Source: an uncultured Bacteroidales bacterium
GTDB taxonomy: Bacteria; Bacteroidota; Bacteroidia; Bacteroidales; GCA-2748055
NCBI GenBank assembly: GCA_963763215.1
Contig: CAVXNX010000006.1
Coordinates: 83,718-147,717, forward strand
Length of the DNA: 64,000 bases
Direction of reading: 5' to 3'
Part shown: piece by piece, positions 11,622 through 64,000 of the stretch
Numbering within the stretch: position 1 is the first letter of the stretch
Layout: each line of letters opens with the position of its first letter
The notes under the pieces: model-generated
What the model was told of the DNA's origin: nothing
What the model saw: only the letters and a program-made list of their open reading frames with translations
Databases searched by the model: none
Position numbers and translations under genes: made by a program

Positions 11622-11675
11622 CGTCGGTGATAAATAATCAAAAGATCTGGCAGCAATTCATCATTATCATTTACC

Positions 11676-11832
11676 TAGTGCTTGCAAGAAAACGCCAATA
11701 GCTGCGTTATGCTCGACTTCAAAACAGTCATTTACGAATAGTAAACTCCTGTTTTTCAGTCATCGCAAGCCTTGCTCTTGACGTTTTCTTATCAAGCACG
11801 GCTAAAAAACATGAGTTTTCTTTCTGACACTA
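11676..11832 (-). repeat. copy A of a 157-bp repeat (153-bp core flanked by TA); MITE-like
   Basis: Base-by-base comparison shows the exact reverse complement of 56660..56816 (157/157). It lies in the gap between the cysteine synthase stop (11851) and the GNAT start (11621). Confidence 0.9.
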
Positions 11833-11850
11833 CCTATGATCCGCAATGGA

Positions 11851-17509: not shown

Positions 17510-17519
17510 GCCCCCCGAT

Positions 17520-27072: not shown

Positions 27073-27245
27073 ATTTATTCCATGGTTAACCTCGTGATCA
27101 TTCCGTTTTATCTCCAAAAATGAATTAAAATGATCGATTTATAGCTGAATGATGTATATTTATTTCGTGACATAGAAGCGTATCTCAGAATACTAACATG
27201 ACCTACAAGCTACGCCGTGATTTGTTCATCCTGTACCGGGGAAAA

Positions 27246-41025: not shown

Positions 41026-43259
41026 ATGAAGAGAATTGCTGGCCTGTTCGTATTGTTCATCCTCTTTGCTGTTTCGGCTTTTCCGCAGGAAATGGCAAAG
41101 ATTAAACTTGTTGACAAGGTCACAGGGGAAGTGTTGCCTTTTGCGAACCTGTGCTTTGAAAACAAAACGCTGAATAAACAAACCTTTCAGGTCTCCGATA
41201 TCCACGGTGATGCCTCCGAGGCTATCAAGGGAAAAACCGTCGTCGCGGTATCCATGATCGGCTATGAAACGCTCATGGATACCCTCTACACCGGCGGAAC
41301 ATATACCTATAAGCTCAAACCTGCCGTTTTTGACATGGATGAGGTGGTGGTCACCGCCCAGATCACACCCAAAAAAGTCGATAATTCCATTTATAAGGTT
41401 AATGTCATCAGCAACCTCGATATCAAGGAAAAAGCGGCAAATAACCTTTCCGACCTGCTTTCCGATCGACTGAATTTCAGGATCACCCAGGATGCGGCCC
41501 TGGGCTCCGGTCTCATGCTGAACGGGCTCAAAGGTGAACACATCAAGATCCTGATCGACGGCGTTCCGGTGATCGGCCGGATGAACGGAAACCTCGACCT
41601 GGGACAACTCAACCTCAATAATGTCGATCATATCGAAGTGGTTGAAGGACCCATGTCGGTGCAATACGGTTCCAATGCCCTGGCGGGAGCCATTAACATC
41701 ATCACCCGGGAAAATACCCGGAATAACCTTACCGCCGGGATCAACAGCTATTATGAAACCGTTGGCGTTTACAATGCCGACGGCTCGTTCTCGATGAACC
41801 GGAAAAACCATTCGGCGGGATTGGATGTCGGTCGGAATTTCTTTGGAGGCTATCCCGCGGCCGGAAGGGATCCGGACCCGGCTCTTCAAACCCAAGGAAC
41901 AGTACTTTGGCGACGGATATTACGCCTTCCACTCCGGGGGAACAAAGATCAAGGCCGATGTACGCTATTTCCGCGAAACCCTCCTCCAGAACGGCGCCCC
42001 GGTAACGGTCGGGCATAATTACGGTCTCGCCTCAGATTCCCGGTTTTACACCAACCGGTTGACCGGCAAGCTGTTTTTTCAGCAAAAACTCGGGGAGAAC
42101 AGCAACCTGGATATCGTCAATGCCATGGCTGATTACCGCCGTGTAAAAAATACCTATCTCAACGATCTTGTCAGGCTGGAGAAAACCATCAACCCCGATG
42201 CCAGCCTCCAGGATACATCCACCTTCCGGGATTATATGTCCCGGGGAACCTGGTCCTATTCGCATCCCGACGGTACCTTCAACCTGCAGTCAGGCTATGA
42301 TTTCACCCTTGAAACCGGCACCGGGAAACGGATCCTCAACAATAAACAGGCCATCGGCGATTACGCGGTCTTTTCGACCATAAACCTTAGCATGATCCGC
42401 ACACTGGACCTTCAGGCAGGGCTTCGATATGCCTACAATACGCGATACGAAGCCCCGGTTGTGCCTTCACTGAACATTAAATTTTCACCTTCCAAAAAAT
42501 TGAACTTCCGGGCCTCCTATGTCAGAGGGTTTCGCGCCCCATCCCTTAAGGAACTTTATCTCGAATTCCAGGATATCAACCATAACATTCTGCCCAGCCC
42601 GAACCTGAAATCGGAAATGTCACACAACGTCAATGCCTCTGGAAATTACCGGTTTGATGCCGGAAAGAATTTTTTTGATCTCGAGGTGAACGGTTTTTAC
42701 AACCAGATCGAAAACAGCATCCAACTTGCCCTGGTCGATTCAGCGACCAACCAGTACGGTTATGTCAATGTCGATGGTTACACCACGAGCGGCGGATCGG
42801 TGAAGCTGAGATACAGGCTCCATCCCCGGTTTGAATTGTCGCTGGGAGAATCGGCCATTAACCATTATTATTACTTCACCGGGGAAAACGGCAGGGTCGA
42901 TGACCAGGCCATGAGCTATGAATTTACGGCCAACATGAATTATGACTCTCTTCAGGTATGATATGGTTTTTTCAATCTTCTATAAGTATACCGGGAAGTA
43001 TCCATTGCTCGCCGGTTCGGGAGATGACCTGCATTTCGGCATGGTCGACGCTTACAATACCATGGACATCACCCTGAATAAGTCCTTTTTCAACAAACAA
43101 TTGACCATCGGCACCGGGGTGAAGAACCTGTTCAACGTCACCAATGTTTTCAATGGAGGCGGATCGGCCGGGGTACATAGCGGGGGAGGGGATACCAGCC
43201 CTGTCTCATGGGGACGTTCCTGGTTTCTGAGGCTGGCTTATCAATTTGCAAAGTATTAA
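41026..43259 (+). pseudogene. TonB-dependent receptor (CarboxypepD_reg-like N-domain + plug + barrel), two frame disruptions (~41860, ~42945)
   Basis: Plug motif NVDHIEVVEGPMSVQYGSNALAGAINIITRE in ORF 41026..42018, barrel in 41825..42961, and terminal strands ...RSWFLRLAYQFAKY in 42942..43259. Confidence 0.85.
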
Positions 43260-47660: not shown

Positions 47661-48104
47661 TTAGAACCTTCTCGTGGTCAGTATAATATCCGAATCGGGT
47701 TCCGGTGTCCCCGGATCCCTTTCAGCCGTGACAAAGATTTTTGTCGGTTTAACCGACGAGACGGTTTTAAAATCGGCTTTGAGCCTTTTGGAGAATAAAC
47801 CCGAACCGCTGGTGATCTGTCCGATATTTTTGGTCTCCTGATTTTCGGACTCCATCCAAACGACGTACACATCCTTCGGAGGATGAAGATTCTGAGGAGG
47901 AGCCAGGTTCTCGATTTGAACGGAAATCACGTAATTATCATTTTTATCCTGCTTCACCGATACCGATCCTTCGGCAGCCGGGACGACGGGTGAACTCAGG
48001 AAGGGTGCCTTCGTGGCGCATGACCCAAGAAAGAGCAGCATCAGGATGAGAGGGATCGCCGCCATGAAAGGGTGTGGCCGTTTAAGAGGGTTTTGTGTTT
48101 TCAT
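47661..48104 (-). CDS. hypothetical lipoprotein
   Basis: Signal peptide with lipobox FLGSC and a beta-rich 147-aa body. Family not recognised. Confidence 0.55.
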   Translation of the reverse strand: MKTQNPLKRPHPFMAAIPLILMLLFLGSCATKAPFLSSPVVPAAEGSVSVKQDKNDNYVISVQIENLAPPQNLHPPKDVYVVWMESENQETKNIGQITSGSGLFSKRLKADFKTVSSVKPTKIFVTAERDPGTPEPDSDIILTTRRF

Positions 48105-49003
48105 CTATAAGTTAGTGAATTTTTGGTGAAGATGTCTGAGTGAAATCATCGTTTATATATATAAACACTTATAAACCAAAAAGTTCACAGTTCAGGGGCG
48201 AAAAGTGTTGATGACAATGCCGGGTGGATGCAAAAAGAAATGGCCTGACCCCATTTTTCCACGACATTTTTCGTAAAGAACGGCAGGCATTGAAAGGCAG
48301 AAGGTGCACTGGCTTAGCGGGAGTTTTTACATGTCCGGGAGCTTCGAACCGTGTTTCATTCTCTCCCGGTTTGCCATTTTCCCTTTCATCAATGGTCATT
48401 CGGAAAGCCGGAATGGGGGGAAGTGAAACTCTGCGGTAATTCGGCCATGCAGGATGGTGGTGAATTTTACCGGTCAGGCGATGTCATGTATTGATTTTCT
48501 TAGACCTTTTTGATTAGACGTGAAGAAAATATGGTCACTGATCAATGATAAATCAAGGTTTATCAATACGAGTATGCTATTGATCCCAAGTGGTTTGTTA
48601 ATAATTTGTTAATGACTTACTTTTAATATGGTGCTTGGAAAAGTACCATTCGCCAGACAGGACATATTGAAACTAAAGGCGTTGATTGAGGAAAATGGAA
48701 AAACAGTCCTAACTCTCTCAATAACAACATGATTAACTTTAGAAAATTCAATATTTACTGGGACTGACGTGACGGAAGTTTATATATCTCTAAGCTTGAG
48801 ATATTCTAAAGCAATTTCACTCCTTCATAAAAATTCTTCAGAGGATATACAAGCCCAATCTTTCCCAAAAAGTAATATTCACTTAACGGAGGAATTATAC
48901 TATGGATTTAACAAGTTATCATTTGCCGATTACTGAATAAGATTTCATCCTAAAATACTTCGATCCATCACCAAATTAAATGATATAAACAAATATTTTC
49001 ACT

Positions 49004-49792
49004 ATGAAACCTTTCCTCGGACATCCTTTCTTCGTCTTTTTTCTTATGCTAATTTCCTGTTCAATGCTATTAAGTTCTTGTGTAATGCAACGCAATGTAG
49101 AATATTTACAGGATAAGAATGATTCTATTAAAACATTTGAAGAGGTCGTTTTGCCCGATTATAAGCTTAAGACCAATGATGAATTATATATTCAGATAAA
49201 TAGTCTCGATGATGCATCAGCCAATGTATTTTCCAGTGGTCGTGAATCTTCATATAATATAGGTACCATGCAGCCTTATGGCGCGTCCCTTATATCATAT
49301 TCAGTGGATAAAGAAGGCTATCTACTTTTGCCTGTTATAGGAAAGATTCAGGTCGAGGAAAAGACATTACCAGAAGTAAGTAGTATTTTACAGGATTCAC
49401 TTAGCCATATTCTGAATCATCCGATAATAACAGTAAAGCTTGTCAACAGGTATGTTTCGGTTTTGGGAGAAGTGAGAAGCCCGGGACATTTTGCGTTCGC
49501 ACAGGATAAGATCTCCATATACGACGCAATTAGTCTTGCAGGAGATATTACTGAATATGGAAATCGTGAAAATGTGATCCTTGTTCGTAACGAATTTGGG
49601 GAGAACAAACGAATCAATGTTGACCTGACTAGTTCAGATATTCTCGCCTCTACATATTATAATCTCAGACCAAATGATATAGTTTATGTTAAGCCTCTAA
49701 GTAAAAAGTTCTGGGGAATGAGACAATTTCCATTTGATATTTTGCTTTCATCTTTAACAACTGGGTTATTAATTTATAGTGTATTTAAATAG
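49004..49792 (+). CDS. wza: polysaccharide export outer-membrane protein (Wza/BexD family)
   Basis: YKLKTNDELYIQI (Poly_export-like) and VSVLGEVRSPGHF (SLBB-like). It is the first gene of the AT-rich locus. Confidence 0.8.
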   Translation: MKPFLGHPFFVFFLMLISCSMLLSSCVMQRNVEYLQDKNDSIKTFEEVVLPDYKLKTNDELYIQINSLDDASANVFSSGRESSYNIGTMQPYGASLISYSVDKEGYLLLPVIGKIQVEEKTLPEVSSILQDSLSHILNHPIITVKLVNRYVSVLGEVRSPGHFAFAQDKISIYDAISLAGDITEYGNRENVILVRNEFGENKRINVDLTSSDILASTYYNLRPNDIVYVKPLSKKFWGMRQFPFDILLSSLTTGLLIYSVFK

Positions 49793-49971
49793 GTTGATGA
49801 CCGTATTTAATAGTTAGATGTTGAGATGTTAAAAGTTCTAAAAATTTGAATGAATTGTTAGATAAATAATTATATATTATAATGAAAATACTTCGGCAAG
49901 TCAGATACTTACGATTTTCTTTATTCGGAACTTATTATTTCAGAATATATGAATCTTAATATTAAACTTTT

Positions 49972-52398
49972 ATGTCACAAAGAAGAAACATAAATGTCCA
50001 GGACGAAAATGATTTCAAAAAGGTAGTTGGATTATTCTTTAGGAATTTTAAGTTATTCACTATTAGTTTAATAATCGCAATTGCACTTGCATTTTTCATC
50101 AACCATTATTCAATTCCAGTTTATAAAATATCATCCTCAATTCTTATTAAAGAAAATAAAGCTCAACAAAGTAGTGGAGATGTTAATAATTTTCTCAATA
50201 GCAGTTTATTTGGAAATAATCAAAATTTTCAGAATGAACTCTGGGTGTTGAAATCTTCGCCTGTTATGGAACAAACTGTAAGAGACTTGGATTTGTTGGT
50301 TAATTATTATGAAAAAAGTGACTTCAAGTACCAGGATGCGTATCAGAATATACCCTTCAGAGTGATTTTTATAAAGGACCATCCTCAACCGATCAATGTA
50401 AAATTTGAACTCACATTTTTGATTGATGGATATTTCAACCTAAAGGCGAAATCAAAAGAAGCAGTCTTCTATAATTTTGAAACCGGACAGGCCGCAAAGA
50501 TCAAGGACAGATGGTCGTTCAATAAAAATGGAATATTCGGTGAATTAATAGAAACCGACGACCTGGCATTTATTATCGAGGCTGATAGTAGCATCCACAC
50601 ACTTAAAGAAAGTATACAAACATATGCATTTGAATTTAAAACAGTGACCCAATTGAAAAATGAACTCAAAAACATGCTGGAGTTTAATGTTGTGGATAAA
50701 ATGGCAACAGTGATAGAAATTAGTATAAAAATGGAATCTGTAAAAAAAGGGGAAGATATTGTCAATGAACTGATGGATGTTTATTCCTCTCAAAACCTGG
50801 AAAGAAAAAATCACATTGCCAGTATTACAATTGATTATATTGAAAAACAACTGGATGAGATTTCTGATTCATTAAGCCAGACGGAAGATCATTTGCAAAG
50901 TTTCCGTTCGTCAAACCAGTTATTAAATGTGAAGGAACAGGCAAATGACATATCTCAACTGTATATGAATTTGCAAAATCAACTTGCAGAATTGGTTACC
51001 AGGAAGCAATATTATGATTATGTTGCCGACTATCTGGAAAAGAATAGTAATTTTTCAAATATGATTATTCCCTCCTCTCTTGGAATACAGGATCCTCTAC
51101 TTAATAATCTTATGTCTGAGCTCATTTCGGCACAGGCACAACGATCAAATCTTATCGAAAACAATCAGGAGAGAAATCCGCTTGTCCAAAAACTCGGTAT
51201 CCAGATAGATAATGTTAAAGAGACGATATTTGAAAACATTACAGAAGTGATTAAGACTACCAATATGGCAATTGAAGAAATGAATAAGAGGATAAGCAAA
51301 ACCAAGGCAGAAATCAGCAGATTACCTCAAACGCAACGTGAACTTGGAAGCATTGAACGCAAATATAGCCTTAATAATGCGATATATAATTACCTGCTCG
51401 AGAAGAGAGCCGAGGCTAAAATTACAAAAGCTTCAAACCTGCCCGACAATTTAATAATCGAGCCTGCTGCTATGGTTGGTATGACACCCATTTCACCAAA
51501 TAAGCGCATCAATTATATCATCGCTTTGATTTTTGGGATGGCTTTGCCATTCGGTTTTTTAACTTTGAAAAGCGCTCTTAATAATAAAATTGAAGGACAG
51601 GATGATATCGAACAATTGACATCAGAACCAATCTTGGGAAAAATTCTACATAATCGATATAAAACAGAGAATGTTATGTTTGAATTTCCTAAATCGGATA
51701 TTGCGGAATCCTTTCGTGCCCTTCGGACTAATCTTGATTTCTATGTAAGGGGGGGGCATAAGAAAGTGGTGATGGTAACTTCGTGTTTCGAAAAGGAAGG
51801 TAAAACATTTGTTGCATTGAACCTTGCAATGAGTTACGCTCAATTAGGGCGTAAGACTATTCTAGTAGATTTTGATTTGCGCAAACCGAAGAAATATTTT
51901 AATAATGTGGAAAAATTTCATGACGGGCTAAGCTCCTACATGATCGATAAAATTAGCCTTGGTGATATTATTCATAAATCTCCTCATGAGAATCTGGATT
52001 ATATAATGGCAGGAATTTTACCTCCCAATCCGGTGGAATTAATAGCCGATGATAAAACTGAAAAGCTTTTAGCCATCCTTAAGGATGTATATGATATTAT
52101 TGTTTTGGATACTACTCCTTTGGCTCAGGTTACAGATGCTTACTTGTTGTTGAATCATTCAGAGTTAAAAATACTTGTGACCCGCCAAAATCTTACAATA
52201 AAGAAAGTATTCTCATTGATTGTCAAGGATCTGCAGCTTAAACGAGTTGATAATGTCTGTGTAGTCTTAAATGATAATAAAATATACGGCGATCAGTATG
52301 GATATGGTTATGGGTATAATGGTAAGGGAAAATCAGGGAAACAAATAAAACAGAGTGGCGCGAGAACGGCACAAGAAAATAAAATTAGAACCAGTTGA
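49972..52398 (+). CDS. wzc: chain-length determinant / tyrosine autokinase (Wzc/GumC-type)
   Basis: 808 aa: an N-terminal Wzz-like region with a long coiled coil, the P-loop region VTSCFEKEGKTFVALNLA, IIVLDTTP, and a C-terminal Tyr cluster YGDQYGYGYGYNG. Confidence 0.85.
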   Translation: MSQRRNINVQDENDFKKVVGLFFRNFKLFTISLIIAIALAFFINHYSIPVYKISSSILIKENKAQQSSGDVNNFLNSSLFGNNQNFQNELWVLKSSPVMEQTVRDLDLLVNYYEKSDFKYQDAYQNIPFRVIFIKDHPQPINVKFELTFLIDGYFNLKAKSKEAVFYNFETGQAAKIKDRWSFNKNGIFGELIETDDLAFIIEADSSIHTLKESIQTYAFEFKTVTQLKNELKNMLEFNVVDKMATVIEISIKMESVKKGEDIVNELMDVYSSQNLERKNHIASITIDYIEKQLDEISDSLSQTEDHLQSFRSSNQLLNVKEQANDISQLYMNLQNQLAELVTRKQYYDYVADYLEKNSNFSNMIIPSSLGIQDPLLNNLMSELISAQAQRSNLIENNQERNPLVQKLGIQIDNVKETIFENITEVIKTTNMAIEEMNKRISKTKAEISRLPQTQRELGSIERKYSLNNAIYNYLLEKRAEAKITKASNLPDNLIIEPAAMVGMTPISPNKRINYIIALIFGMALPFGFLTLKSALNNKIEGQDDIEQLTSEPILGKILHNRYKTENVMFEFPKSDIAESFRALRTNLDFYVRGGHKKVVMVTSCFEKEGKTFVALNLAMSYAQLGRKTILVDFDLRKPKKYFNNVEKFHDGLSSYMIDKISLGDIIHKSPHENLDYIMAGILPPNPVELIADDKTEKLLAILKDVYDIIVLDTTPLAQVTDAYLLLNHSELKILVTRQNLTIKKVFSLIVKDLQLKRVDNVCVVLNDNKIYGDQYGYGYGYNGKGKSGKQIKQSGARTAQENKIRTS

Positions 52399-52563
52399 TA
52401 TCGAATAAATGAGTATTTTGATCTGATTAATTATTCTAAAATCTAATACCTGAATTAGTTTTCAAGTTACAGTTCAGAACGGTATCGAAAAAAACATAAA
52501 AACATTTGTAACCTGCATTTATAAATAAGATCATCTTTCCTGTTTATAATATATGAATTCAAA

Positions 52564-52971
52564 ATGTCACAAAAAAATAAGGTTCAAATAATTAATCTCC
52601 CAAAAATTGAAGATGATCGCGGTAATCTTTCATTTATTGAAGAAGAGAATCATATCCCATTTAAAATCAATCGGGTTTACTGGATTTATGATGTCCCAGG
52701 TGGTGAATTCAGAGGGAGCCATGCCTTTAAGAAATCTGAAGAATTCATCGTTTCCCTGTCAGGGAGCTTCGACGTCGTTTTGCATAATGGGAAAGAAGAA
52801 AAGAAATTTTCACTTAGTCGATCTTATTACGGATTATATGTACCAAATGGGATCTTCCGGAGGCTGGAAAATTTCTCTACCAATTCGGTTGCACTGATCT
52901 TAACTTCAACTCTATTCGATGAAAGTGATTACATCAGGAACTTTAAAGAATTTTTGAATTACCTAAAATGA
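52564..52971 (+). CDS. FdtA/WxcM-like cupin (dTDP-4-keto-6-deoxyhexose 3,4-ketoisomerase-like), divergent copy
   Basis: DDRGNLSFIE...INRVYWIYDVPGGEFRGSHAFKK...DESDYIRNFKEF. It carries HAF where the FdtA-type sequence has HAH. Confidence 0.75.
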   Translation: MSQKNKVQIINLPKIEDDRGNLSFIEEENHIPFKINRVYWIYDVPGGEFRGSHAFKKSEEFIVSLSGSFDVVLHNGKEEKKFSLSRSYYGLYVPNGIFRRLENFSTNSVALILTSTLFDESDYIRNFKEFLNYLK

Positions 52972-53402
52972 TATTAAAAGCATCAATTTATAATTGTAGT
53001 ATTCTTGAATTAAGCAAAATTCACAACAGATCAGGTAGTATTACTGCAATTGAGGACAGATTCGATATTCCCTATGAAGTAAAACGCGTATACTATCTTT
53101 ACGATGTTCCGGGTGGAGCCGAAAGAGGGGGCCATGCACACCAGGAATTGCAGCAGTTGGTCGTTGCCGCAAGTGGATGTTTCGATGTTATTTTAGATGA
53201 TGGCAGAAATAAAAAAGTGGTTGAACTGAACCGACCTTACTACGGATTACACATTGTGCCAGGAATATGGAGGGAAATTTGTAATTTCTCCTCCGGAGCG
53301 GTATGCCTTGTACTCGCATCCAGTAAATATGATGAAAATGATTATTTCAGGAATTATGATGATTTTTTACAGTTCAAACTTGGTTCAAAAAAAAGGAGCT
53401 GA
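52968..53402 (+). CDS. fdtA: FdtA-like dTDP-4-keto-6-deoxyhexose 3,4-ketoisomerase
   Basis: KRVYYLYDVPGGAERGGHAHQELQQ...LDDG...VLASSKYDENDYFRNYDDF closely follows the FdtA pattern, including both His residues. Confidence 0.8.
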   Translation: MILKASIYNCSILELSKIHNRSGSITAIEDRFDIPYEVKRVYYLYDVPGGAERGGHAHQELQQLVVAASGCFDVILDDGRNKKVVELNRPYYGLHIVPGIWREICNFSSGAVCLVLASSKYDENDYFRNYDDFLQFKLGSKKRS

Positions 53403-53618
53403 CTACAGGTTGAATCTCATACTTGGTAACAATAGGTGGTAAAAGTAAGGAAGTCGGATGTCGGAAGTCAGACCTCCGACTGATTAAACGCAATATGATA
53501 GTAGCATTTAAAGAGAAAATAAGTGAGCTCAGCAGGTCACTTCTAACATCTAACTTCGGCTTCATTAAGATATTCTTTAATTGTAATTAAAGTACTAATC
53601 CTTTTATAACCTAAAGCG

Positions 53619-54551
53619 ATGCTTATTGATGTCCCCGTGAAAACTTACCGTCAGTATTTTCATACTGATCCACACCCTTATGTGTCAGAAAACTTCATTT
53701 CATTAAATAAGCATAAAGCCGATAGAATTGTGCGACTTATAGAAAATGATGAAAGGGTTTCAATTGGAATTATTGCCGGCATAAAAGATAATACTTTTTA
53801 TTCGCCTTTCTCAGCGCCATTTGGTGGATTTCACTTTATAAGTAATGAAATAAGAACTGGTGAAATATCTGAATATATCGATGATTTAAGGACTTTTCTT
53901 ATTGATCAAAAATTGCAAAAATTCAAACTTGTATTACCTCCGAATATGTATCATCATTCAATGAATGCAAAATTCGTTAATACATTCATACGGAGTGGAT
54001 TTGAGATGGCATTGCCGGATATATCTAACTATATTGATCTGAAAACATTCGATGGTACGTGGGTAAAAAAGCGTGTGGCCGAACGATGTCAGTTTGCCGA
54101 AAGAAACAATCTTTCTTTCCATTATCTTACGGATGATAAAATGAAAATGGATGCTTATGAGATTATTGTCATAAACCGAACACAGTTTGACCGTAAAATT
54201 TACATGACCTACAACGACTTGATGGATGTCGATACGATAATGCCTGTTGATTTCTTTATGGTGAAAGACAGAACAGGAGAAAATGTCGGGTCTGCGGTTT
54301 GTTACCGTGGGCATGAATCTATTGTTCAAGCCATATTCTGGGGAGATACTCAGGTAGGAAGAAAATTGGGAACCATGGATTTTTTGGTAAAATATTTATT
54401 TAAGCATTATAAAGAACTTGGTTTTGATTTCATAGATATTGGTATTTCTACAGAGGATGGAATTCCAAATGAAGGATTAATACGTTTTAAGGAATCACAT
54501 AATTGTACTTCCTGTTTAAAATTTTCCTTTTCACTTAATCTTCCTGAATAA
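53619..54551 (+). CDS. putative acyltransferase (GNAT/FemAB-like fold), family uncertain
   Basis: 310-aa intact ORF between the isomerase and aminotransferase genes, where an N-acyltransferase is expected. I can point to no diagnostic motif. Confidence 0.35.
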   Translation: MLIDVPVKTYRQYFHTDPHPYVSENFISLNKHKADRIVRLIENDERVSIGIIAGIKDNTFYSPFSAPFGGFHFISNEIRTGEISEYIDDLRTFLIDQKLQKFKLVLPPNMYHHSMNAKFVNTFIRSGFEMALPDISNYIDLKTFDGTWVKKRVAERCQFAERNNLSFHYLTDDKMKMDAYEIIVINRTQFDRKIYMTYNDLMDVDTIMPVDFFMVKDRTGENVGSAVCYRGHESIVQAIFWGDTQVGRKLGTMDFLVKYLFKHYKELGFDFIDIGISTEDGIPNEGLIRFKESHNCTSCLKFSFSLNLPE

Positions 54552-54579
54552 CAAAATCTGAAATGAATTTAATCATGAT

Positions 54580-55710
54580 ATGATTCCGTTTCTCAATTTG
54601 AAAGAGATTAATGATAGTTTCGAACCTTATCTGTCAGGTGCAATTAAGAGGATATTGGATTCGGGTTGGTACCTCCTTGGAAATGAGGTAAAAGAATTTG
54701 AACACGAGTATTCTAAATATATAGGCACAAGAAACTGTATTGGGGTGGCCAACGGATTAGATGCCTTACGTTTGATTTTCAGGGCGTATAAGGAACTTGG
54801 TGCAATGACAGATGGTGATGAAATAATTGTTCCGGCAAATACGTTCATTGCTTCAATTCTTGCTCTTACAGACAACAACCTCGTACCTGTCCTTGTTGAA
54901 CCGGACATTTCCTCATATAATATTGATCCTTTTAGGATTGAATGCTCTATTACTAAACGCACACGGGGCATTATGGTGGTTCATCTATATGGGCAAAATG
55001 CCATGCATCTGGAGATTAACGGGTTAGTTGAGAAATACAGTCTGAAACTTGTAGAGGACAATGCCCAGGCTCAGGGATGTTATTATGGAGATAAACGTAC
55101 AGGTTCGCTTGGTGATGCCGCAGGGCACAGCTTTTACCCCGGTAAAAATCTCGGGGCATTAGGTGATGCCGGAGCTGTAACTACGGACGACAATGAACTG
55201 GCTGAAGTAATCCGCACCATATCGAATTATGGATCAAAAGAAAAATATCAGTACTTATATAAAGGGCTCAATTCCAGACTGGATGAAATTCAGGCTGCCA
55301 TACTACGTTTAAAACTTCAACGCCTAGATGAAGATAACCGGAAGCGTTCACACATTGCCAACTACTATATTGAACATATATCGAATCCTGCATTAATATT
55401 GCCTTCAATATGCCATCCAGTCGGTATGGGGGCATTAAATACTAACCTTTCGCATGTTTGGCACCTATTTGTCCTTCGCTCGGCAAATCGCAATAAACTA
55501 CAACAATATTTGAGGGAACAAGGTATACAAACATTAATACATTACCCCATTCCGCCCCATAAGCAGAAGGCTATGGAAAGCTGGAATAAGTTGAAATTTC
55601 CGATAACCGAAAAGATACATGAGGAAGTATTGAGCTTGCCAATTAGCCCTGTGATAAATATGGATGATGTAAACACGATCGTAAATACCATTAATAATTA
55701 TAAAGATTAA
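54580..55710 (+). CDS. DegT/DnrJ/EryC1/StrS family sugar aminotransferase (FdtB/QdtB-like)
   Basis: [21 protein letters not shown] (PLP Lys) and [16 protein letters not shown]. Confidence 0.9.
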
Positions 55711-56662
55711 TGTTTTCCTATAAACAAAGTATTTTGAAATATGGTAATCGTTTATTAAAAAGATTTGATTACCAATTAACGAGTACATCCAAGTTAAAAA
55801 GTCTGACCGATTTCACTTCAAATATAATTCGAAACACAGGTGCAAAATTGGATGATGAGAAGATTGATTCTATTGTATTTTCAAAAGACAGGGCAATGCA
55901 ACTTCATGCTTTTTTGCTCTCCTATACTGAAAAAGTAATTAACAGGGGAAGAATGAACGTTCTTTATAAATGCTCGAATAATAAGACATAAAAAGAGCTA
56001 TAACGAATTAATGCAGTCTTTTAAAAATGAAGATTTTATTTTTATCGAAGAAGTTAACTTTCGGGAACAGTTAATAGAAGTTCTCGATCAATCTGATGCT
56101 GGAAAGATAATTTTCTATGTTGATGATATGATATTTACCCTATGAAATAGATTACCAGGTAATTGCCGATATAAATACCAGGGATTATGTTGTATCTCAA
56201 AGGAGAGGTAAAGACATGACGTATAGTGTTGTTCTGCAAAAACCATTGGAATTGCCCCCTTTTACAAAATATCGTTATGGCCTTGAACGATTTTGCTGGA
56301 ATTTTTCTGATGAATACAGTGATTGGACCTATCCGTTAGGTGTAGCGGGTTATATGTACGGGAAAATTGAAATTACGGCCATGTGTAAGGCAATTCCTTT
56401 TAAAGCACCCAATTCCCTTGAAAGTGGTATGCAGCTTTATCTAAATTTCTTCAAAAATCGATTTGGATTATGTGCTGAATTTGCGACATGTGTTTGTGTT
56501 GCTGCAAACCTAGTTCAGACAGAAGGTATTAATCCCGTCATTGGTACATTTAGCGTACAGGAACTATTATTACTTTGGGAAAAAGGGAAGAAAATTGATG
56601 TGCAGCAATTCTATAATAAACCATTGAATGTAACCGAAACACAGAAATATACCTTTATTTAG
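55710..56662 (+). pseudogene. putative glycosyltransferase-like protein, fragmented over three or more frames
   Basis: ORF 55710..55991 (…IVFSKDRAMQLHAFLLS…). My translation of 55990-56150 in other frames continues KSYNELMQSFKNEDFIFIEEVNFREQL...IIFYVDDMIFT. The ORF 56216..56662 follows. Function is unverified. Confidence 0.4.
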
Positions 56663-56816
56663 TGTCAGAAAGAAAACTCATGTTTTTTAGCCGTGCTTGA
56701 TAAGAAAACGTCAAGAGCAAGGCTTGCGATGACTGAAAAACAGGAGTTTACTATTCGTAAATGACTGTTTTGAAGTCGAGCATAACGCAGCTATTGGCGT
56801 TTTCTTGCAAGCACTA
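56660..56816 (+). repeat. copy B of the 157-bp repeat (153-bp core flanked by TA); MITE-like
   Basis: Exact reverse complement of 11676..11832. Its first TA(G) supplies the stop codon of the upstream ORF, and it ends 27 nt before the wzx ATG. Confidence 0.9.
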
Positions 56817-56843
56817 TTTAGGGAAATCCTCGCTGATTGATGC

Positions 56844-58267
56844 ATGAAAAAAAGACAATCCTACAGGCACATTCTAAAAGCGACCAGTCTATTTGGTGGG
56901 GTACAGATCATACAAATATTATCCACCCTGATCCGTGGAAAATTCATCGCTGTTCTACTGGGTCCTGGGGGGATGGGAATAGCAAATCTCTATATCTCTT
57001 CAACAACGATGATCTCAAATATTACAGGACTGGGATTGAACTTCAGTGCGGTGAGAGACATTTCCATGGCAGCCGAAACGAATAACAATACAAGAATCAG
57101 TAAAATAATTAAAGTTTTCAGGCGATGGATATGGTTTAGCGGATTATTAGGTATTGTTGTCACTGTTCTTTTTGCTCCTGCTTTAAGTAAATGGACATTC
57201 GGGAATAATGATTATGCTCCTTGCTTTTATTTGGCTTTCGAGCGTACTTTTAATTAATGCCCTGGCAAAGGGAAATTTAACGATTCTCCAGGGAATGCGT
57301 CAGCTTAGGGCGATAGCTAAATCTACAGTCATTGGATCAGTTATTGGTGTTTTTACAGCCTTTCCACTCTATTATTATTTCGGAGTTGAGGGGATTATTC
57401 CTGCAATCATCATTGCTGCTCTTACGTCGCTTGCGGTTAGTACGTATTATACTAAGAAAATTAAATTACGATCTGTAAATGTGACTTATAAGGAGACCCT
57501 ATATGACGGAAAAGAGATGACCAAACTTGGTGTCTTAATGATGATAAGTCTATTCCTTGGGGCCCTTGTTACTTATGTTTTAAATGCTTTTATACGATAT
57601 AAAGGTGGAATATCGGACGTAGGACTTTACCAGGCAGGATTAAGTATTTCCGACAGATTTATCGGACTTGTATTTGTTGCAATGGGTACTGATTTTTTTC
57701 CCCGGCTATCAGGAATTAGTAAGGATAATGAAAGGTTAGGGAAATGGTAAACCAACAAGCAGAAATCGTGGTCCTTATTGCTGCTCCATTATTAATTGCT
57801 CTTCTCATTTTGGCACCTCTGATTTTACGCTTGTTTCTTTCTTCTGAATTCGCATCAATAGCCGTTTTTATTCGATGGCTTGCTTTAGGTAGTCTATTTA
57901 AAGAGCTTCATATTCAATGGGGTATATTGCCGTTGCTAAAGGAGATAAAAAGGTTTTTTTTATTGTCGAAGGTCTTTTGGGTAATTCGATTAATTTAGTA
58001 TTCAATATTATTGCCTATAATTTTTGGGGTCTGAAAGGTATGGGTATATCTATGTTAATTAGCTATGCCATTTATTTTTATGCGATATTAATGATCACTA
58101 ACCGACTTTACAATTTTGAATTTAGTCGCAAATTTATCAAAATATTTGCCTTTTATTTAGTGCTATGTGTTCTTGCTCTTATTCTCTCATTGGTTTCCGG
58201 TCCTGTATGGATATATTCGGCAGGTTCCATTATTTTTGGTATATCTATATTTTTTACGATCAGATGA
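56844..58267 (+). pseudogene. wzx: Wzx-type oligosaccharide flippase (MOP superfamily), three frame disruptions (~57230, ~57745, ~57950)
   Basis: Four consecutive hydrophobic ORFs (56844..57257, 57208..57750, 57744..57998, 57917..58267) whose N-terminus ILKATSLFGGVQIIQILSTLIRGKFIAVLLGPGGMG is typical of Wzx. The 57745 shift sits at GGGAAATGG, where AAAA would keep the frame. Confidence 0.8.
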
Positions 58268-58481
58268 ACTCGATAAACGTATTGAATTGAAATCCTTGTT
58301 GTTGTTAAAAGCAAATAAGTAAATCGTTTCAATAGGGATAAGTCCAATTGACATTTGCAATGAGCAATAAATCAATCCATGGCTAATAATCGATACAATT
58401 ATAGATAAACATTCAACTTACTTTCTTGATAAAGAGGATTATTCCCTAAGTGATCCATATTTAGACAAAATTCTATTTATT

Positions 58482-59585
58482 TTGTCATTTATCATATTTT
58501 TATTAATGTCACCCTATTTCGTTTGGTCTAATCAAAAATTATTTTTTGGTTTGGCACGTATTTCGACGGATATCATTATACTATATATATTTTTTCTATA
58601 TAATAATTCGCATATTTATAATAAAGAGTTAGTTTTTGTTTTTGTAATTGTATCCTTTTATTCTATGGTAGGAGGTACAGAAAACCGTATGATTAATTTT
58701 GTTCCTTTAGTCCCATATTATTTCTTGCATTAAGACCTAACCAGCAATTAAAAATATTTGATTTATTTGTTACCATATTATCCATTGTATATGCCATTGG
58801 GTTAGCCTCATACATGCTGAAAATTTTGGGTATGAATGTGCAATTAGCAACGGCTATATCATCCAAATACATCAAAATTTCCCTATTCAGTTTACTTCGG
58901 TCACATTGAGGAATCCGGGTTCATTGTTTATCGGTTTTCAAGTATTTTTGATGAACCTGGTGTCGTAGGAACATTAAACGGATTATTACTCTCAGTTATT
59001 GGAATATCGAAAAAAAATATTAAATCAATTATTATATTACTTACAGGTTTAATCTCCTTTTCGCTTGCATTTTATGTCATTCTCATTTTGTATTTAATAT
59101 TAAATTTTAATATTAAACAATCCATAGCTATTGGAATAATCATAATCGGATTAGGTATTGTTACTGGAGATAAGCTAAATTCACTGATAAAGAGCAGGTT
59201 ATTAATCGAAGATTGGCAATTAGCCGGTGATAATCGGACTAGTGCTGTTTTTGATTCATATTTTCACTTTTTTTTAAAAAGTGGAGGTAAAGATCTGATT
59301 TTTGGTAAAGGTCCCGGATCATTTTTTAATATACAGGAAGCGGAGGGAGTTGCAACCTATAAAATTGTTATTATTGACTATGGAATAATTGGAGTATCTT
59401 TAATATTGATTATTTTATTTACTGTGCGTTTTTCGTGAAAATAATTCAAGGCATGGATGGTTCTTTTTTCCTCGTATTGTTGCTTTGCTTCTACCAACGG
59501 CCAGAAGTACTTTATTACCCCTACATTGTTGTTTACGTTGGTGGGCTAAGATATCTTAAGGAAGGGGAAGTTGGTTCTTGCTGAG
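58482..59585 (+). pseudogene. wzy: O-antigen polymerase (Wzy)-like membrane protein, heavily fragmented
   Basis: A run of very hydrophobic, AT-rich ORF pieces (58482..58733, 59088..59438 and unlisted fragments) between the flippase and a glycosyltransferase. Boundaries are approximate. Confidence 0.4.
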
Positions 59586-59716
59586 TCGTTTCAATGATAG
59601 ATTATTTAAAGCTTTACAAAAGTTATCATTAAGAGGATCTAGAAATAATCATTTTTCTAAGGTTTTTTCGAATAGTTAATTGAATACTAAAATACATTTT
59701 ACGCACAAATATCTTA

Positions 59717-60553
59717 GTGGCTTCACAACAATTTCATAATCGTGTTGATAATAATAAAACGGATATTACGGATTTCCCACTGTATCTGTCAATATTATAA
59801 CATATAATTCTGGTGAATATGTAATTGATACTCTTGAAAGTGTCAAAAATCAGATCTACAATAATATTGAATTGATAATTAGCGACGATTGCTCGAGAGA
59901 CCAGACGGTTGCAAAATGCATGGATTGGCTAAACGAAAACTCCAACAGGTTCGTGCGAACAAAAATGCTAACTGTGACTGAAAATACTGGCGTAACTGCT
60001 AACTGTAATAGAAGTCTTGATGTTTCATCTGGTGAATGGATTATGTTTGTAGCAGGAGATGATTTATTATTTGATACTTGCCTTTATAATTTCATCCATC
60101 ATATAAGACAAAATATTCGATGTGAAATAATTGCTTCTAATGTGGTATTCTTTACTGATAATTTAAATTCAAATGAGAATTTTAATTCTCAATTAGAGCA
60201 ATTGAAAATTTTTTCTATTGTGATACTTCTGCAAAAAAACAGTTTAGAATACTTACGTACAGCAATCCAATCCTGGCTCCTTCTGTTTTTATTTCGCGAA
60301 AAAGCTACTTAAAACACTAGGAGGGTTTGATGAACGTTTTAACAATATGGAGGATTATCCATTTTGGCTCAAAGCAACTTCGAATGGTTATAAAATTGAT
60401 TTGATGAATAAATTGACAGCAGGCTATCGATTAAGATCTAATTCTATTAGCGGATATTCAGATGATTCGATTTTTAATAAAGCCTATAAAGATATTTATA
60501 TTTATAGAAAACAATGTACTTTTAAATATTTAAATGTAATAAAGACGATTTAA
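59717..60553 (+). pseudogene. GT2 family glycosyltransferase, several frame disruptions
   Basis: My translation gives (T)VSVNIITYNSGEYVIDTLESVKNQ, then ORF 59872..60312 with ELIISDDCSRDQT and FVAGDD (DxD), then ORF 60347..60553 (EDYPFWLKA...). Start and shift positions are approximate. Confidence 0.7.
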
Positions 60554-60734
60554 TTTAATGTACATTATATTTTATTCGTAGACTTATTCGTTAAAATTAA
60601 ATATTAATAAGGTCGGATATAAAAGCTTATATATTTTTTTATTAAGGTTAAATATTTTCAATTATTATAAATAACAAACTAAAAATTTAGTGGCTTTAAC
60701 ATATCTTTCTTTTTTTATAATTAATGGATGTAAT

Positions 60735-61979
60735 GCAAAACTTGAAAGTCTTATCGTTTAGTAACAACGAATTATTGAAAAGGTTGACAGTAAAAATACG
60801 GGGACCTGGTTAAATACAATGTCACATGGTTTGATGAATACTGGAGAAATTGCATTGTCTAATATTACGCAAGGTAATGTTAAGAAACTGGTTCGACGCG
60901 ATGAGGGTAGTATTAATCAGTGGATTGTTCCTCTAACTATGAAATTGGATAAAGATGGCCTTCCGGGATCACGTATTGTCGATTATTATTTGAAAGTTAT
61001 TGATGATGTAAAGCCGGATCTTATTCACATTTGGGGAACAGAGAGTTATGCAGGATTAATCACTGCAAGAAAGATGGCTCTTACTCCTGTGCTCCTTGAG
61101 ATACAAGGAATAAAAGGTGCTATTGCACGAATTTATGGCGGGCAGTTAACCCTGAGAGAACAATATCAATGCATTGGTATCAAAGAAGTACTAATGCGTT
61201 CTTCTATTTTTCATAGAAATAAACAATATAAGAAATGGGCTTTATATGAGCAGGAAATGATCTCAAATCATAAGAATATAACGGTTTTATCTCCATTTAT
61301 GGAGGCTCAAGTAAGGGCTATTAATCCTGATGCAAATATTTTTCATAATGAAATCATATTACGTGACATATTCTACAAAGGCCCTCGGTGGCAATATACA
61401 GGTAAACCTGTCATATTTACTTTATCTGCCAATTCAGCTCCGTTTAAAGGGTTACATGTATTGATCAGGGCTGTGACCAATTTGAAGAAGGTCTATCCTG
61501 ATATTGAATTGAGGATAGCCGGTTCGCATCAATTAAAAGGTATAAGAAAAGACGGTTATATAGACTGGATATTAAAGGAAATTAAAAAGTCTGATTTGAA
61601 ATCAAACATAATATGGTTAGGAGGGCAAACAGGTGAAGATATTGCAGGCGAACTTAGCCGTTGTTCAGTTGCCGTTTTCCCCAGTTTTATTGAGAGTTAC
61701 GGGATCACCCATATTGAATCAATGGCTATAGGTACTCCTTGTGTTTGTGCCTATAACGGGGGGTATTCGTATTTAGGAGAGGATGAAAAGACCACCTTGT
61801 TTTTCGCGCCGGGTGATCACATAATGTGTGCATTTCATATCCAAAGGCTTTTATCTGATAAAAGACTGGCGGAATCATTTTCTAGCAGAGCCAGGACAGA
61901 TACTCTCAAACGTAATGATAAGCAGAAGATATTGAGTAATCAACTTGATATATACAAAAAAGTGTTGAATCTTGGTTAA
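60735..61979 (+). pseudogene. GT4 family glycosyltransferase, N-terminal ~25 codons in another frame
   Basis: ORF 60819..61979 carries FPSFIESYGITHIESMAIGTPCV (the E-x7-E region). ATG 60735 (MQNLKVLSFSNN...) joins it if one A is added to the A5 run near 60795. Confidence 0.8.
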
Positions 61980-62138
61980 TAATTGAGATCCGTGAGTAAT
62001 GAAAGGATTTAAGATGTCTGATACTTCGTGGCCTAATATTATCCCTGTCTAATTCAAGATAAGTTGTCTTTACCCAGCCACGAAAATGAGCTCTGCAAAA
62101 GTGGAATGTAAAGAATTTGCCAATCCTGCTATCTAAGT

Positions 62139-62728
62139 ATGAAATACAGAAATTTATCTCATTCTTCTGATATACTTATCCGAAAATTATATTCCTTTTA
62201 GGGCGCAGAAATGTTCTCTTTGCCCGTTGGTGGGGAGTGAAACTAGGTAAGAATGCAAAATTTGACGGTAAATGTTATTTCAGGCGTTTCCCTGAATCTT
62301 CTATTAAAATTGGTCAGAATTGTTTATTTCTTTCCCGGGTAAATTCAAATCTTATTGGAATAAATCGGCCGTGTTCGATTTCAACACTCACAAAGGAAGC
62401 TAAAATTGAGATTGGAAATAATTGTGGTTTCAGCGGTACGGTTATAGGGGCGTTTAAATCCATAATATTCGGTCAAGATGTACGATGTGGAGCCAATACA
62501 CTGATAACTGATTCGGATTGGCATTTAGAAGATCCCAGAACCGGAGAGCCTAAAGCGATTGTTATCGGCAACAATGTTTGGTTAGGCGTGAATGTAGTAG
62601 TACTTAAAGGGGTTACCATAGGGAATAATACAATTATCGGGGCAAATAGTTTGGTTATTAATGATATTCCTGAAAATGTTATTGCGGCAGGAAATCCCTG
62701 TAAAGTTATAAGACAGATATATGGATAA
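62139..62728 (+). pseudogene. hexapeptide-repeat (LbH) O-acetyltransferase, frame disruption near 62200
   Basis: ORF 62237..62728 carries IGNNVWLGVNVVVLKGVTIGNNTIIGANSLV repeats. ATG 62139 (MKYRNLSH...) lies in a different frame. Confidence 0.75.
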
Positions 62729-62739
62729 TACAACACTTA

Positions 62740-63828
62740 ATGTTTTGTATCTTAGGTCATTATAATTATCCCAAAGGGGGGGCCTTAGCGAAAAGAGTAC
62801 AATATCAGGCTGAATTTTTGCAACGATCAAATGTTAATGTCTCCATTGTAATACCATTGAAAGGAATTTCAGGGATACTTAATGGTATTCCATATGATTA
62901 TGGTAAACTAAATTCTTTGAGCCGAATTTATCAATTCAGGGGGAAACATAGGAGTTAATATTCTTTTTACTCAGACATTGATTGGCGCTAAAGAATTAAT
63001 TTTTGTTCTTTTTGCAAAGATGTTGGGATATAGGATCGTAATGGATAAGGTGGAATTATTTAATTTCCTCGAAGACCGAATGAGTTTCAGACAAAAAATG
63101 GATATCAAAATCGGGTTGTTTATGGACAATTTTATCAACTGGTTTGCCAACGGGATCATCGTAATATCTACCCTATTATATGAAAAATATAAGGATATAG
63201 GCATTCCATATTATTATTGCCTAATTCTGTGCCTCATTCATTAATTGTTACAAATAATAAAAATAAGTTCAATAACCCTGTAAGAATGGTCTATGCCGGT
63301 TCATATGGTAGAAAGGATGGTGTAGAATATTTGATTCGCGCGTTTAAAAAATTAGTACAACACCATGATAATGTTGAATTACATTTAGTTGGTAAAGGTA
63401 CCAATGAGAACCATCAACGGATTAAGAATGAAATCGGATCGGGAGGATTCGTGATCTATGAACATGGTTATGTAGATGAAGATAACCTTCAGGATATCCT
63501 TTTGGATGCTGATATATTAGCTGTGACAAGGACAAATTCGAAATATGCAAATTTTGGATTCCCTTATAAACTTACAGAATACTTATGCAAAGGGAATCCG
63601 GTTTTGGCCACGCAGGTTGGTGATATTTCATTATATCTCGAAGACAAAAAGAATATCGTATTTGCTAATGCCGAGGATACAGATTCCCTCTGTGACGCTA
63701 TGGAATATTGTTTAACTAATGAAAAACAACTAATTCGGCTTGGCAGAAGGGGTCAAAAAGTAATTCAAAAATTCTTTTCAATTGAAAAAAACGGAAAATT
63801 CTTACTTGATTTTATTCTTGCTATTTAA
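62740..63828 (+). pseudogene. GT4 family glycosyltransferase in three frame pieces
   Basis: ORFs 62740..62958, 62978..63244 and 63217..63828. The last has VRMVYAGSYGRKDGVEYLIRAF and FGFPYKLTEYLCKGNPVLAT. Confidence 0.7.
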
Positions 63829-63932
63829 TGTGTAGGGTAACTAAACCCTCTTTATAATCTATTTTTATCGTTTCTTTAATTTTTTATTACTGTTTCTTAT
63901 TTGAATGAAGACTACAAAGTGTAGTTGACAAA

Positions 63933-64000
63933 ATGAAGACAATTGTTGCATTCATCGGACCATTACCTCCGCCCGTTGGAGGGGTTAGTATGATTAATCA
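63933..64000 (+). CDS. 5' end of another glycosyltransferase-like gene (runs off the window)
   Basis: ATG 63933 gives MKTIVAFIGPLPPPVGGVSMIN, a typical GT N-terminal glycine-rich loop. Only 22 codons are visible. Confidence 0.35.
   Translation, partial: MKTIVAFIGPLPPPVGGVSMIN

What the first reader, a model, noticed from the sequence alone, without database searches (positions are those of the whole stretch)
56655..56847. Removing repeat copy B plus one TA restores an ATGA-coupled junction between the upstream gene and wzx
The upstream ORF currently ends at TAG 56660-56662, built from the flanking TA plus the first base of the core. Deleting the 153-bp core and one TA (155 nt) makes the ORF read ...TFI-YLGKSSLIDA* and stop at TGA 56845-56847. 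That stop overlaps the wzx ATG 56844-56846 in the classic ATGA start/stop overlap. This is what a recent insertion into a translationally coupled gene pair would look like. It also implies the element now separates wzx and all downstream genes from their upstream operon context.
Basis: inference. Interest (0 to 1): 0.6.

Follow-up and report, generated by a model that had tools for sequence, protein, structure and literature searches.

The report
Small transposon between two sugar-coat genes
A 153-bp non-coding mobile element (a MITE) has jumped into the short gap between a glycosyltransferase-like gene and the wzx flippase gene. It duplicated 6 bp rather than 2 bp, so the proposed ancestral overlapping "ATGA" junction never existed and this is an ordinary insertion.

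Summary
The sequence facts are correct. A 153-bp core lies at 56662-56814, flanked by TA. A second, 100% identical, inverted copy lies at 11678-11830. Deleting 155 nt does make the upstream ORF stop at TGA 56845-56847, overlapping the wzx ATG.

The reconstruction is wrong, for four reasons:
- Both copies are flanked by exact 6-bp direct repeats (TATTTA and TAGGTA).
- The first 27 nt of the element are identical to one end of a 1,840-bp IS. That IS encodes an ISNCY-bin, IS5-like transposase and has a 6-bp duplication (TAATTA).
- 11 of 12 related IS copies in two long-read MAGs carry exact 6-bp TAnnTA duplications.
- The true empty site is therefore a 159-nt, in-frame deletion. It leaves the same TAG stop (…KYTFI*) and a 22-nt spacer before the wzx ATG.

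Homologues agree. The protein family ends at a conserved YTF[I/V/L], usually with 0-5 extra residues, and five syntenic loci have positive spacers (17-~150 nt) and no overlap.

The element is a recently inserted MITE. I found no promoter or terminator consensus in it. Both flanking genes, and three genes downstream, are frameshifted here.

Verdict: an ordinary MITE insertion. The ATGA-coupling idea is refuted. The one mildly interesting feature is a long hairpin that is conserved through compensatory changes.

The parts
56662..56814 (+). MITE copy B, 153-bp core. End 1 (GTGTCAGAAAGAAAACTC...) is of the IRR type and end 2 (...GCGTTTTCTTGCAAGCAC) is of the IRL type. An internal third terminus-like motif at about 56693-56709 pairs with end 2 to form a long hairpin.
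   Evidence: The first 27 nt are 100% identical to the end of the L001 IS. End 2 matches the IRL of L004 at 17/18 and of L005 at 16/18. RNA fold -62.8 kcal/mol, z = -7.25.
56656..56661 (+). Left copy of the 6-bp target-site duplication, TATTTA. It covers the last base of the Phe codon, the Ile codon and the TA of the stop codon.
   Evidence: maximum exact flanking direct repeat = 6.
56815..56820 (+). Right copy of the 6-bp target-site duplication, TATTTA. Followed by G 56821, it forms the ancestral TAG stop.
56660..56662 (+). Present stop codon TAG of the GT-like gene: TA from the left duplication plus G, the first base of the MITE. It encodes the same C-terminus (…KYTFI*) as the reconstructed empty site.
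56822..56843 (+). Ancestral 22-nt intergenic spacer between the GT-like stop and the wzx ATG.
   Evidence: Compare the 17-18 nt spacers in L059, L060 and L061.
55710..56662 (+). GT-like gene ('cell wall biogenesis glycosyltransferase-like', no Pfam family). It is a single gene of about 316 aa that is broken here by two frameshifts.
   Evidence: (96-100% coverage of a family of about 317 aa, up to 65% identity).
56844..58267 (+). wzx (Polysacc_synt flippase), in four colinear pieces with three frameshifts.
11678..11830 (-). MITE copy A, 100% identical to copy B. It lies between the cysteine-synthase-like gene (stop 14 nt upstream of the duplication) and a 167-aa gene (ATG 50 nt downstream). It has the same orientation relative to its flanking genes as copy B.
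11831..11836 (-). Copy A target-site duplication TAGGTA, upstream copy (read on the minus strand).
11672..11677 (-). Copy A target-site duplication TAGGTA, downstream copy (read on the minus strand).

Best explanation
[quoted passage not shown] It is a non-autonomous derivative of an approximately 1.8-kb insertion sequence whose IS5-like DDE transposase falls in the ISNCY ('not classified yet') bin.

The transposase is supplied in trans; none is encoded in the window. It cuts a TAnnTA target with a 6-bp stagger, and repair duplicates the hexamer.

The target here was the TATTTA that spans the last sense codon and the first two bases of the TAG stop of the GT-like gene. Because the element begins with G, the left duplicate plus that G rebuilds TAG, so the encoded C-terminus (...KYTFI*) is unchanged. 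The spacer between the stop and the wzx ATG grew from 22 nt to 181 nt.

The ancestral junction was an ordinary short spacer, not an ATGA overlap.

Shown: element identity, the 6-bp duplication, the family-wide TAnnTA target, the conserved protein C-terminus and syntenic spacers.

Inferred: mobilisation in trans, recency (from 100% identity and intact duplications), and little or no regulatory effect.
For: - Both window copies have exact 6-bp flanking direct repeats with different middle bases: TATTTA and TAGGTA.
- The 27 terminal nt are identical to the end of a 1,840-bp IS in metagenome contig L001. That IS is flanked by a TAATTA duplication, and removing it plus 6 bp restores an uninterrupted IS1634 transposase ORF.
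- The 488-aa ORF of that IS matches NCBIfam NF033593 (ISNCY family transposase) at 407 bits against a cutoff of 325, with a weaker IS5 match.
- In 57 related loci, the well-defined ones share GTG[Y][Y]..AAGAAAAC termini. In two long-read MAGs, 11 of 12 IS copies have exact 6-bp TAnnTA duplications.
- MITE end 1 matches the IRR at 18/18 (L001, L022). End 2 matches the IRL at 17/18 (L004).
- The 159-nt deletion keeps TAG and gives a 22-nt spacer.
- 120 homologues end at YTF[I/V/L] with short or no tails.
- Five syntenic loci have spacers and no overlaps.
- A 75%-identical full-length relative of the MITE exists in a Saccharicrinis MAG.
Against: - No natural empty site could be found. The source contig cannot be retrieved and the nearest relative is only 74% identical in CysK and at most 65% in the GT-like protein.
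- The autonomous parent IS was not found in the window, and the rest of the genome could not be examined.
- About eight single-copy IS loci, and the L015 MITE relative, have non-identical TAnnTA hexamers on the two sides. Recombination or chimeric assembly would explain this, but neither was shown.
- Family tails after YTF[I/V/L] do vary, up to 15 aa. The C-terminus argument alone is therefore supportive rather than decisive.
Confidence: 0.9

Rival explanations
1. The element is a TA-duplicating MITE (IS630/Tc1-mariner or Correia-like) that inserted into a translationally coupled gene pair. Precise excision of 155 nt restores an ATGA stop/start overlap and a protein 10 residues longer.
For: TA does flank the core on both sides in both copies, and the 155-nt deletion does produce ...TFIYLGKSSLIDA* with an ATGA overlap.
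Against: - The direct repeats are 6 bp in both copies. A 2-bp model would need a TAabTAabTA target in every case.
- The related IS has a 6-bp duplication whose removal restores an ORF, and 11 of 12 related IS copies show exact 6-bp duplications.
- The transposase is IS5-like/ISNCY, not IS630.
- Homologues lack the 10-residue tail.
- Five syntenic junctions have spacers.
- The ATGA result also arises with a 152-nt deletion, that is, whenever the ORF lands in that frame.
Confidence: 0.03
2. The 153-bp sequence is not a passive transposon remnant. It is a structured intergenic RNA/DNA module (REP/ERIC/Correia-like in effect) whose long hairpin, transcribed at the 3' end of the upstream gene, stabilises, terminates or processes the mRNA. 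Its position right after stop codons would then be functional.
For: - Strong sense-strand fold: -62.8 kcal/mol, z = -7.25, against -44.9 for the antisense strand.
- The hairpin is kept in the 75%-identical relative through 7 double compensatory changes. 90.6% of cells are paired, against 39-53% in the slid controls.
- Both relatives fold better on the same strand.
- Both window copies have the same orientation relative to co-directional flanking genes, 0 and 14 nt after a stop codon.
Against: - Only two distinct sequences are available for covariation, and only two copies for orientation (50% by chance).
- No T-tract terminator and no promoter consensus, neither sigma-70 nor the Bacteroidota TAnnTTTG motif. 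No Rfam family.
- The hairpin arms are themselves terminus (IRL-type) sequences, so transposase binding or palindromic origin could explain their conservation.
- This reading adds to the MITE explanation and does not exclude it.
Confidence: 0.12
3. The repeat is an old, fixed intergenic feature or an assembly artefact (collapsed or duplicated sequence) rather than a recent insertion.
For: The assembly carries many frameshifts, so its quality is open to question. No occupied or empty site from a sister strain is available.
Against: - The two copies are 100% identical in unrelated contexts 45 kb apart, each with its own exact 6-bp duplication.
- The termini match autonomous ISs.
- The element is absent from the same junction in five syntenic loci.
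Confidence: 0.03

Closest known systems
Bacterial MITEs derived from insertion sequences (for example the MITEs of Porphyromonas gingivalis, PMC4596501 and PMC2575886, or MITEAba12, PMC6382973)
   Same: Small (153 bp) and non-coding, with terminal inverted repeats that match those of an autonomous IS. Flanked by target-site duplications, present in identical multiple copies, located in intergenic regions and able to fold into a long hairpin.
   Different: This sequence family appears undescribed: Rfam has nothing and the genome and metagenome scans returned one IS end and one 75%-identical relative. Its architecture is unusual. It has an IRR-type end followed by a ~120-nt palindrome built from two IRL-type ends, rather than a simple internal deletion.
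ISNCY-bin IS with an IS5-like DDE transposase (NCBIfam NF033593). From memory this is probably the ISDol1 group of ISfinder, listed at about 1.6-1.9 kb with 6-7 bp direct repeats. That assignment was not verified here.
   Same: The presumed parent IS (L001) is 1,840 bp, and relatives are 1,819-1,850 bp. The transposase is above the NF033593 cutoff. The duplication is 6 bp. Relatives occur in Desulfobacterota as well as Bacteroidota.
   Different: The window element has no transposase. Subgroup assignment could not be tested because ISfinder is not available. It is clearly unlike the IS1202 group of ISNCY, which has TGT...ACA ends, a TnsB-like transposase and 5-bp (or longer) duplications (PMC10132070).
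Correia elements / IS630-Tc1-mariner-type MITEs (TA duplication)
   Same: Size class of about 150 bp, TA at both borders, intergenic location close to genes, hairpin-forming potential.
   Different: The duplication is 6 bp (TAnnTA), not 2 bp. The associated transposase is IS5-like/ISNCY. The comparison with Correia elements rests on my own knowledge, not on a test here.
ATGA translational coupling of adjacent genes
   Same: ATGA is present at the wzx start (ATG 56844-46 followed by A).
   Different: In neither the present nor the reconstructed ancestral state does the upstream ORF stop at that TGA. The ancestral stop is TAG, 22 nt upstream.

Membership tests
MITE (IS-derived non-autonomous element) | Small size and no coding capacity | tested here: met
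   The core is 153 bp. The only overlapping mechanical ORF is a 44-aa minus-strand ORF (56711-56845) that runs out of the element.
MITE (IS-derived non-autonomous element) | Terminal inverted repeats | tested here: met
   GTGTCAGAAAGAAAAC against GTGCTTGCAAGAAAAC, 12 of 16. The ends match the IRR at 18/18 and the IRL at 17/18 of autonomous relatives.
MITE (IS-derived non-autonomous element) | Target-site duplication of the length made by the parent transposase | tested here: met
   6 bp in both copies. 6 bp in the L001 IS and in 11 of 12 IS copies in long-read MAGs.
MITE (IS-derived non-autonomous element) | Several near-identical copies in one genome | tested here: met
   Two 100% identical copies in the window. 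The genome-wide copy number could not be determined because the source contig is not retrievable.
MITE (IS-derived non-autonomous element) | An autonomous IS with matching ends in the same genome to supply transposase | not testable with these tools
   A matching IS was found only in another metagenome contig (L001). There is no transposase of this family in the window.
ISNCY-bin IS5-like IS (NF033593), as the parent family | Transposase scores above the curated family cutoff | tested here: met
   407.1 bits against a cutoff of 325. The IS5 model scores 79.8 bits, below its cutoff.
   The duplications are 6 bp (TAnnTA).
Translationally coupled (ATGA-overlapping) gene pair, ancestral state | The upstream stop overlaps the downstream start once the insertion is removed | tested here: not met
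   The 159-nt excision gives TAG plus a 22-nt spacer. Homologue C-termini and five syntenic spacers agree.
Intrinsic terminator | G+C-rich stem followed by a T-run | tested here: not met
   No terminator-like site lies within either copy. The hairpin is followed by TATTTAGGG.
Any Rfam RNA family | Covariance-model match at the gathering score | tested here: not met
   No matches in the whole window.

The most novel reading that the evidence does not exclude
The conserved ~120-nt hairpin is kept through compensatory changes between relatives that are 75% identical. It folds better on the strand that is co-transcribed with the flanking genes, and both copies sit directly after stop codons in the same orientation. 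It could therefore act as a mobile 3'-UTR module in Bacteroidota, working as an mRNA stabiliser, processing site or terminator. This would resemble what is known for REP, ERIC and Correia elements in Proteobacteria, but spread by an ISNCY-type transposase. Its insertion between the GT-like gene and wzx would then have uncoupled expression of the downstream wzx-wzy-GT2 genes and could have preceded their decay.
Probability: 0.1. Interest if true: 0.45.

Novelty: new member of a known kind. Interest (0 to 1): 0.2.

Why it matters
- The report corrects a plausible but wrong reconstruction. The length of the target-site duplication must be established from all copies and from the parent IS before an ancestral junction is inferred.
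- It documents a MITE/IS pair in Bacteroidota with a clear TAnnTA, 6-bp target signature. This is useful for annotating similar repeats and for spotting insertions in polysaccharide loci.
- It does not reveal a new mechanism. The insertion does not alter the upstream protein, and the surrounding genes are broken regardless.

Tried and rejected
- **Look-ups for the source genome:** exact-protein look-ups for DegT, CysK, the 167-aa neighbour and P0121 all returned 'not on record'. The cluster look-up gave only an unnamed 164,742-bp contig. No sister strain or natural empty site was obtained.
- **Collection scans:** the genome-contig scan with the 25-nt element end gave 0 hits. The metagenome scan gave one hit, which turned out to be the IS end.
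- **Rfam:** nothing at the gathering score.
- **Regulatory signals:** the sigma-70 promoter and terminator scans, and a regex for the Bacteroidota -7 motif TAnnTTTG, found nothing in the element.
- **More MITE copies:** nhmmer with a two-sequence MITE profile over all fetched DNA found no further copies.
- **Literature for the ISDol1 group's direct-repeat length:** the Siguier et al. reviews are not held, so that attribution rests on memory.
- **Models where TA or nnTA belong to the element with a 2-bp duplication:** rejected, because copies A and B would then differ at 4 terminal positions while being 100% identical elsewhere, and because the NN dinucleotides match in direct orientation.
- **The long spacer in L062 as a second insertion:** rejected. 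It is partly a mis-called start and has no significant structure.

Full report
**1. Observation.**
- The mechanical ORF 56216-56662 ends ...KYTFI* at TAG 56660-56662. The G of that stop is the first base of a 153-bp core, 56662-56814.
- The core occurs twice in the window, 100% identical and inverted (copy A 11678-11830, minus strand). The identity extends over TA+core+TA = 157 nt.
- Deleting 155 nt yields ...TFIYLGKSSLIDA*, with the stop at TGA 56845-47 overlapping ATG 56844-46.
- The arithmetic is therefore right. However, a 152-nt deletion gives the same stop, as does any deletion that lands the ORF in that frame. The ATGA outcome is a frame coincidence and not a specific signature.

**2. 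The flanks are 6-bp duplications, not 2-bp.**
- The longest exact direct repeat bordering the core is 6 bp in both copies: TATTTA for B and TAGGTA for A.
- The middle dinucleotide differs between copies while the other 157 nt are identical. These bases therefore belong to the target, not to the element.
- Removing the core plus one hexamer (159 nt, in frame) gives ...ACC TTT ATT TAG ggaaatcctcgctgattgatgc ATG... This has the same TAG stop, the same protein end and a 22-nt spacer.

**3. What the element is.**
- A metagenome scan with the first 25 nt found contig L001. There, the same 27 nt form one end of a 1,840-bp insertion. Its other end (...TTTGCAGACAC) resembles the element's other end.
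- That insertion is flanked by a TAATTA duplication. Deleting it plus 6 bp restores an uninterrupted IS1634 transposase ORF.
- It encodes a 488-aa protein that matches NCBIfam NF033593, 'ISNCY family transposase', at 407 bits against a cutoff of 325. It also has a weaker IS5 match.
- Relatives of this transposase were found at 57 loci, mostly in Bacteroidota MAGs and some in Desulfobacterota. The well-defined ones have termini of the form GTG[Y][Y]..AAGAAAAC.
- Two long-read MAGs each carry six copies, which lets the IS boundaries be set empirically. In these, 11 of 12 copies have exact 6-bp duplications, all TAnnTA: TATTTA, TACTTA, TATATA, TAAATA, TAATTA, TACATA and TAGATA.
- End 1 of the window element equals the IRR of L001 and L022 (18/18). 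End 2 matches the IRL of L004 (17/18).
- No transposase of this family is encoded in the window.
- A full-length relative at 75% identity lies in a Saccharicrinis MAG, L015:964-1116.
- The element is therefore a MITE of an ISNCY-bin, IS5-like IS that duplicates a TAnnTA hexamer.

**4. Independent tests of the ancestral junction.**
- The upstream 'ORF' is the C-terminal piece of one gene of about 316 aa (55710-56662), read in three frames. The joined protein covers 96-100% of a family of about 317 aa, with identity up to 65% and no Pfam family.
- In an alignment of 120 homologues the family ends in a conserved KYTF[I/V/L]. Eighteen end exactly there and 101 have 5 or fewer further residues. Six of the ten best hits end exactly there, and no tail resembles YLGKSSLIDA.
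- Five syntenic loci (L059-L063) share the order DegT, GT-like, wzx, GT2. The distance from the GT-like stop to the called wzx start is 17, 18, 18, 92 and 209 nt. The last is about 150 nt after correcting a mis-called start. None overlaps.
- The 159-nt model (22-nt spacer) reproduces this layout. The 155-nt model does not.

**5. Consequences of the insertion.**
- The upstream protein is unchanged. The distance from the stop to the wzx ATG grew from 22 to 181 nt.
- The element contains no sigma-70-like promoter, no Bacteroidota TAnnTTTG motif and no T-tract terminator. It matches no Rfam family.
- It does fold into a small 5' hairpin plus a ~120-nt hairpin: -62.8 kcal/mol and z = -7.25 on the sense strand, against -44.9 on the antisense strand.
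- The long hairpin pairs an internal IRL-like motif with the IRL-type end. It is preserved in the Saccharicrinis relative through 7 double compensatory changes, with 90.6% of cells paired against 39-53% for slid controls. Both relatives fold better on the same strand.
- With only two sequences this is suggestive, not proof. The constraint could act on transposition or on an RNA.

**6. Context.**
- The window is from a Bacteroidota genome (T9SS sorting domain). Its own contig is known to the protein collection but is not retrievable, and its nearest relative is 74% identical in CysK.
- The polysaccharide locus from about 48 kb onward has 30-37% G+C, against about 50% elsewhere.
- Five consecutive genes are frameshifted or carry stops: GT-like, wzx, a wzy-like gene (58431-59566), and GT2 (59776-60589). 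DegT, Wzc and the GT1 at 60819-61979 are intact.
- Split genes also occur elsewhere, in a TonB-dependent receptor and in MacB/FtsX.
- Without reads I cannot tell whether this is real decay or consensus error. Either way, an argument about operon coupling of wzx is moot in this assembly.

**7. Verdict.**
- This is a real and recent insertion of a previously undescribed but conventional MITE. The proposed ATGA-coupled ancestral junction is refuted.
- Novelty: a new member of a known kind. Interest is low (0.2).
- The most novel reading still open is that the conserved hairpin acts as a mobile 3'-UTR element (probability about 0.1).

Noticed in passing
window 55710-60600: Five consecutive polysaccharide-locus genes are broken by about ten frameshifts or stops: GT-like, wzx, a wzy-like gene at 58431-59566, and GT2 at 59776-60589. 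Neighbours DegT (54580-55710), Wzc (49972-52398) and GT1 (60819-61979) are intact. This could be real decay or consensus error in a strain-variable locus.
   Followed up: partly
window 41026-42961; 17346-19899; possibly 27198-29826: Genes elsewhere are also split across overlapping ORFs: the TonB-dependent receptor Plug and barrel domains, the MacB_PCD/FtsX permease, and perhaps GH43 with CBM6. Indels therefore occur across the whole window.
   Followed up: partly
window ~48000-64000: G+C drops from about 0.50 to 0.30-0.37 across the capsule/O-antigen-like locus (Wzc, FdtA, DegT, wzx, glycosyltransferases). This is typical of a horizontally exchanged polysaccharide cluster.
   Followed up: no
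window 56693-56814 (core positions 32-153); L015:964-1116: The MITE contains a third, internal terminus-like motif (GTGCTTGATAAGAAAACG) that pairs with the IRL-type end to form a ~120-nt hairpin. The hairpin is kept in a 75%-identical relative through 7 compensatory double changes, and both relatives fold better on the same strand.
   Followed up: partly
window 11672-11836 and 56656-56820: Both MITE copies lie between co-directional genes. They have the same orientation relative to transcription, and their duplications start 14 nt and 0 nt after the upstream stop codon.
   Followed up: no
L005, L007, L010, L022, L028, L031, L032, L037 (IS flanks); L015:958-1122: In these single-copy IS loci, and at the L015 MITE relative, both flanks are TAnnTA but not identical. 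In the IS loci the IRR-side hexamer is TAAATA in 7 of 8 cases. Chimeric assembly or inter-copy recombination may explain the mismatches, but the asymmetry is unexplained.
   Followed up: partly
L001:727-2566: The related autonomous IS is itself inserted into the transposase gene of an IS1634-family element (nested IS).
   Followed up: yes
L062:3470-3680: In one syntenic locus the wzx start appears mis-called. The conserved N-terminus begins near 3620 at a TTG, leaving a spacer of about 150 nt with no significant structure (z = -1.47).
   Followed up: yes
window 53619-54551: A 310-aa ORF lies between FdtA and DegT and has no Pfam match. In syntenic loci this region instead holds ATP-grasp/HAD or hexapeptide acyltransferase genes. 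It may be an uncharacterised sugar-modifying enzyme.
   Followed up: no
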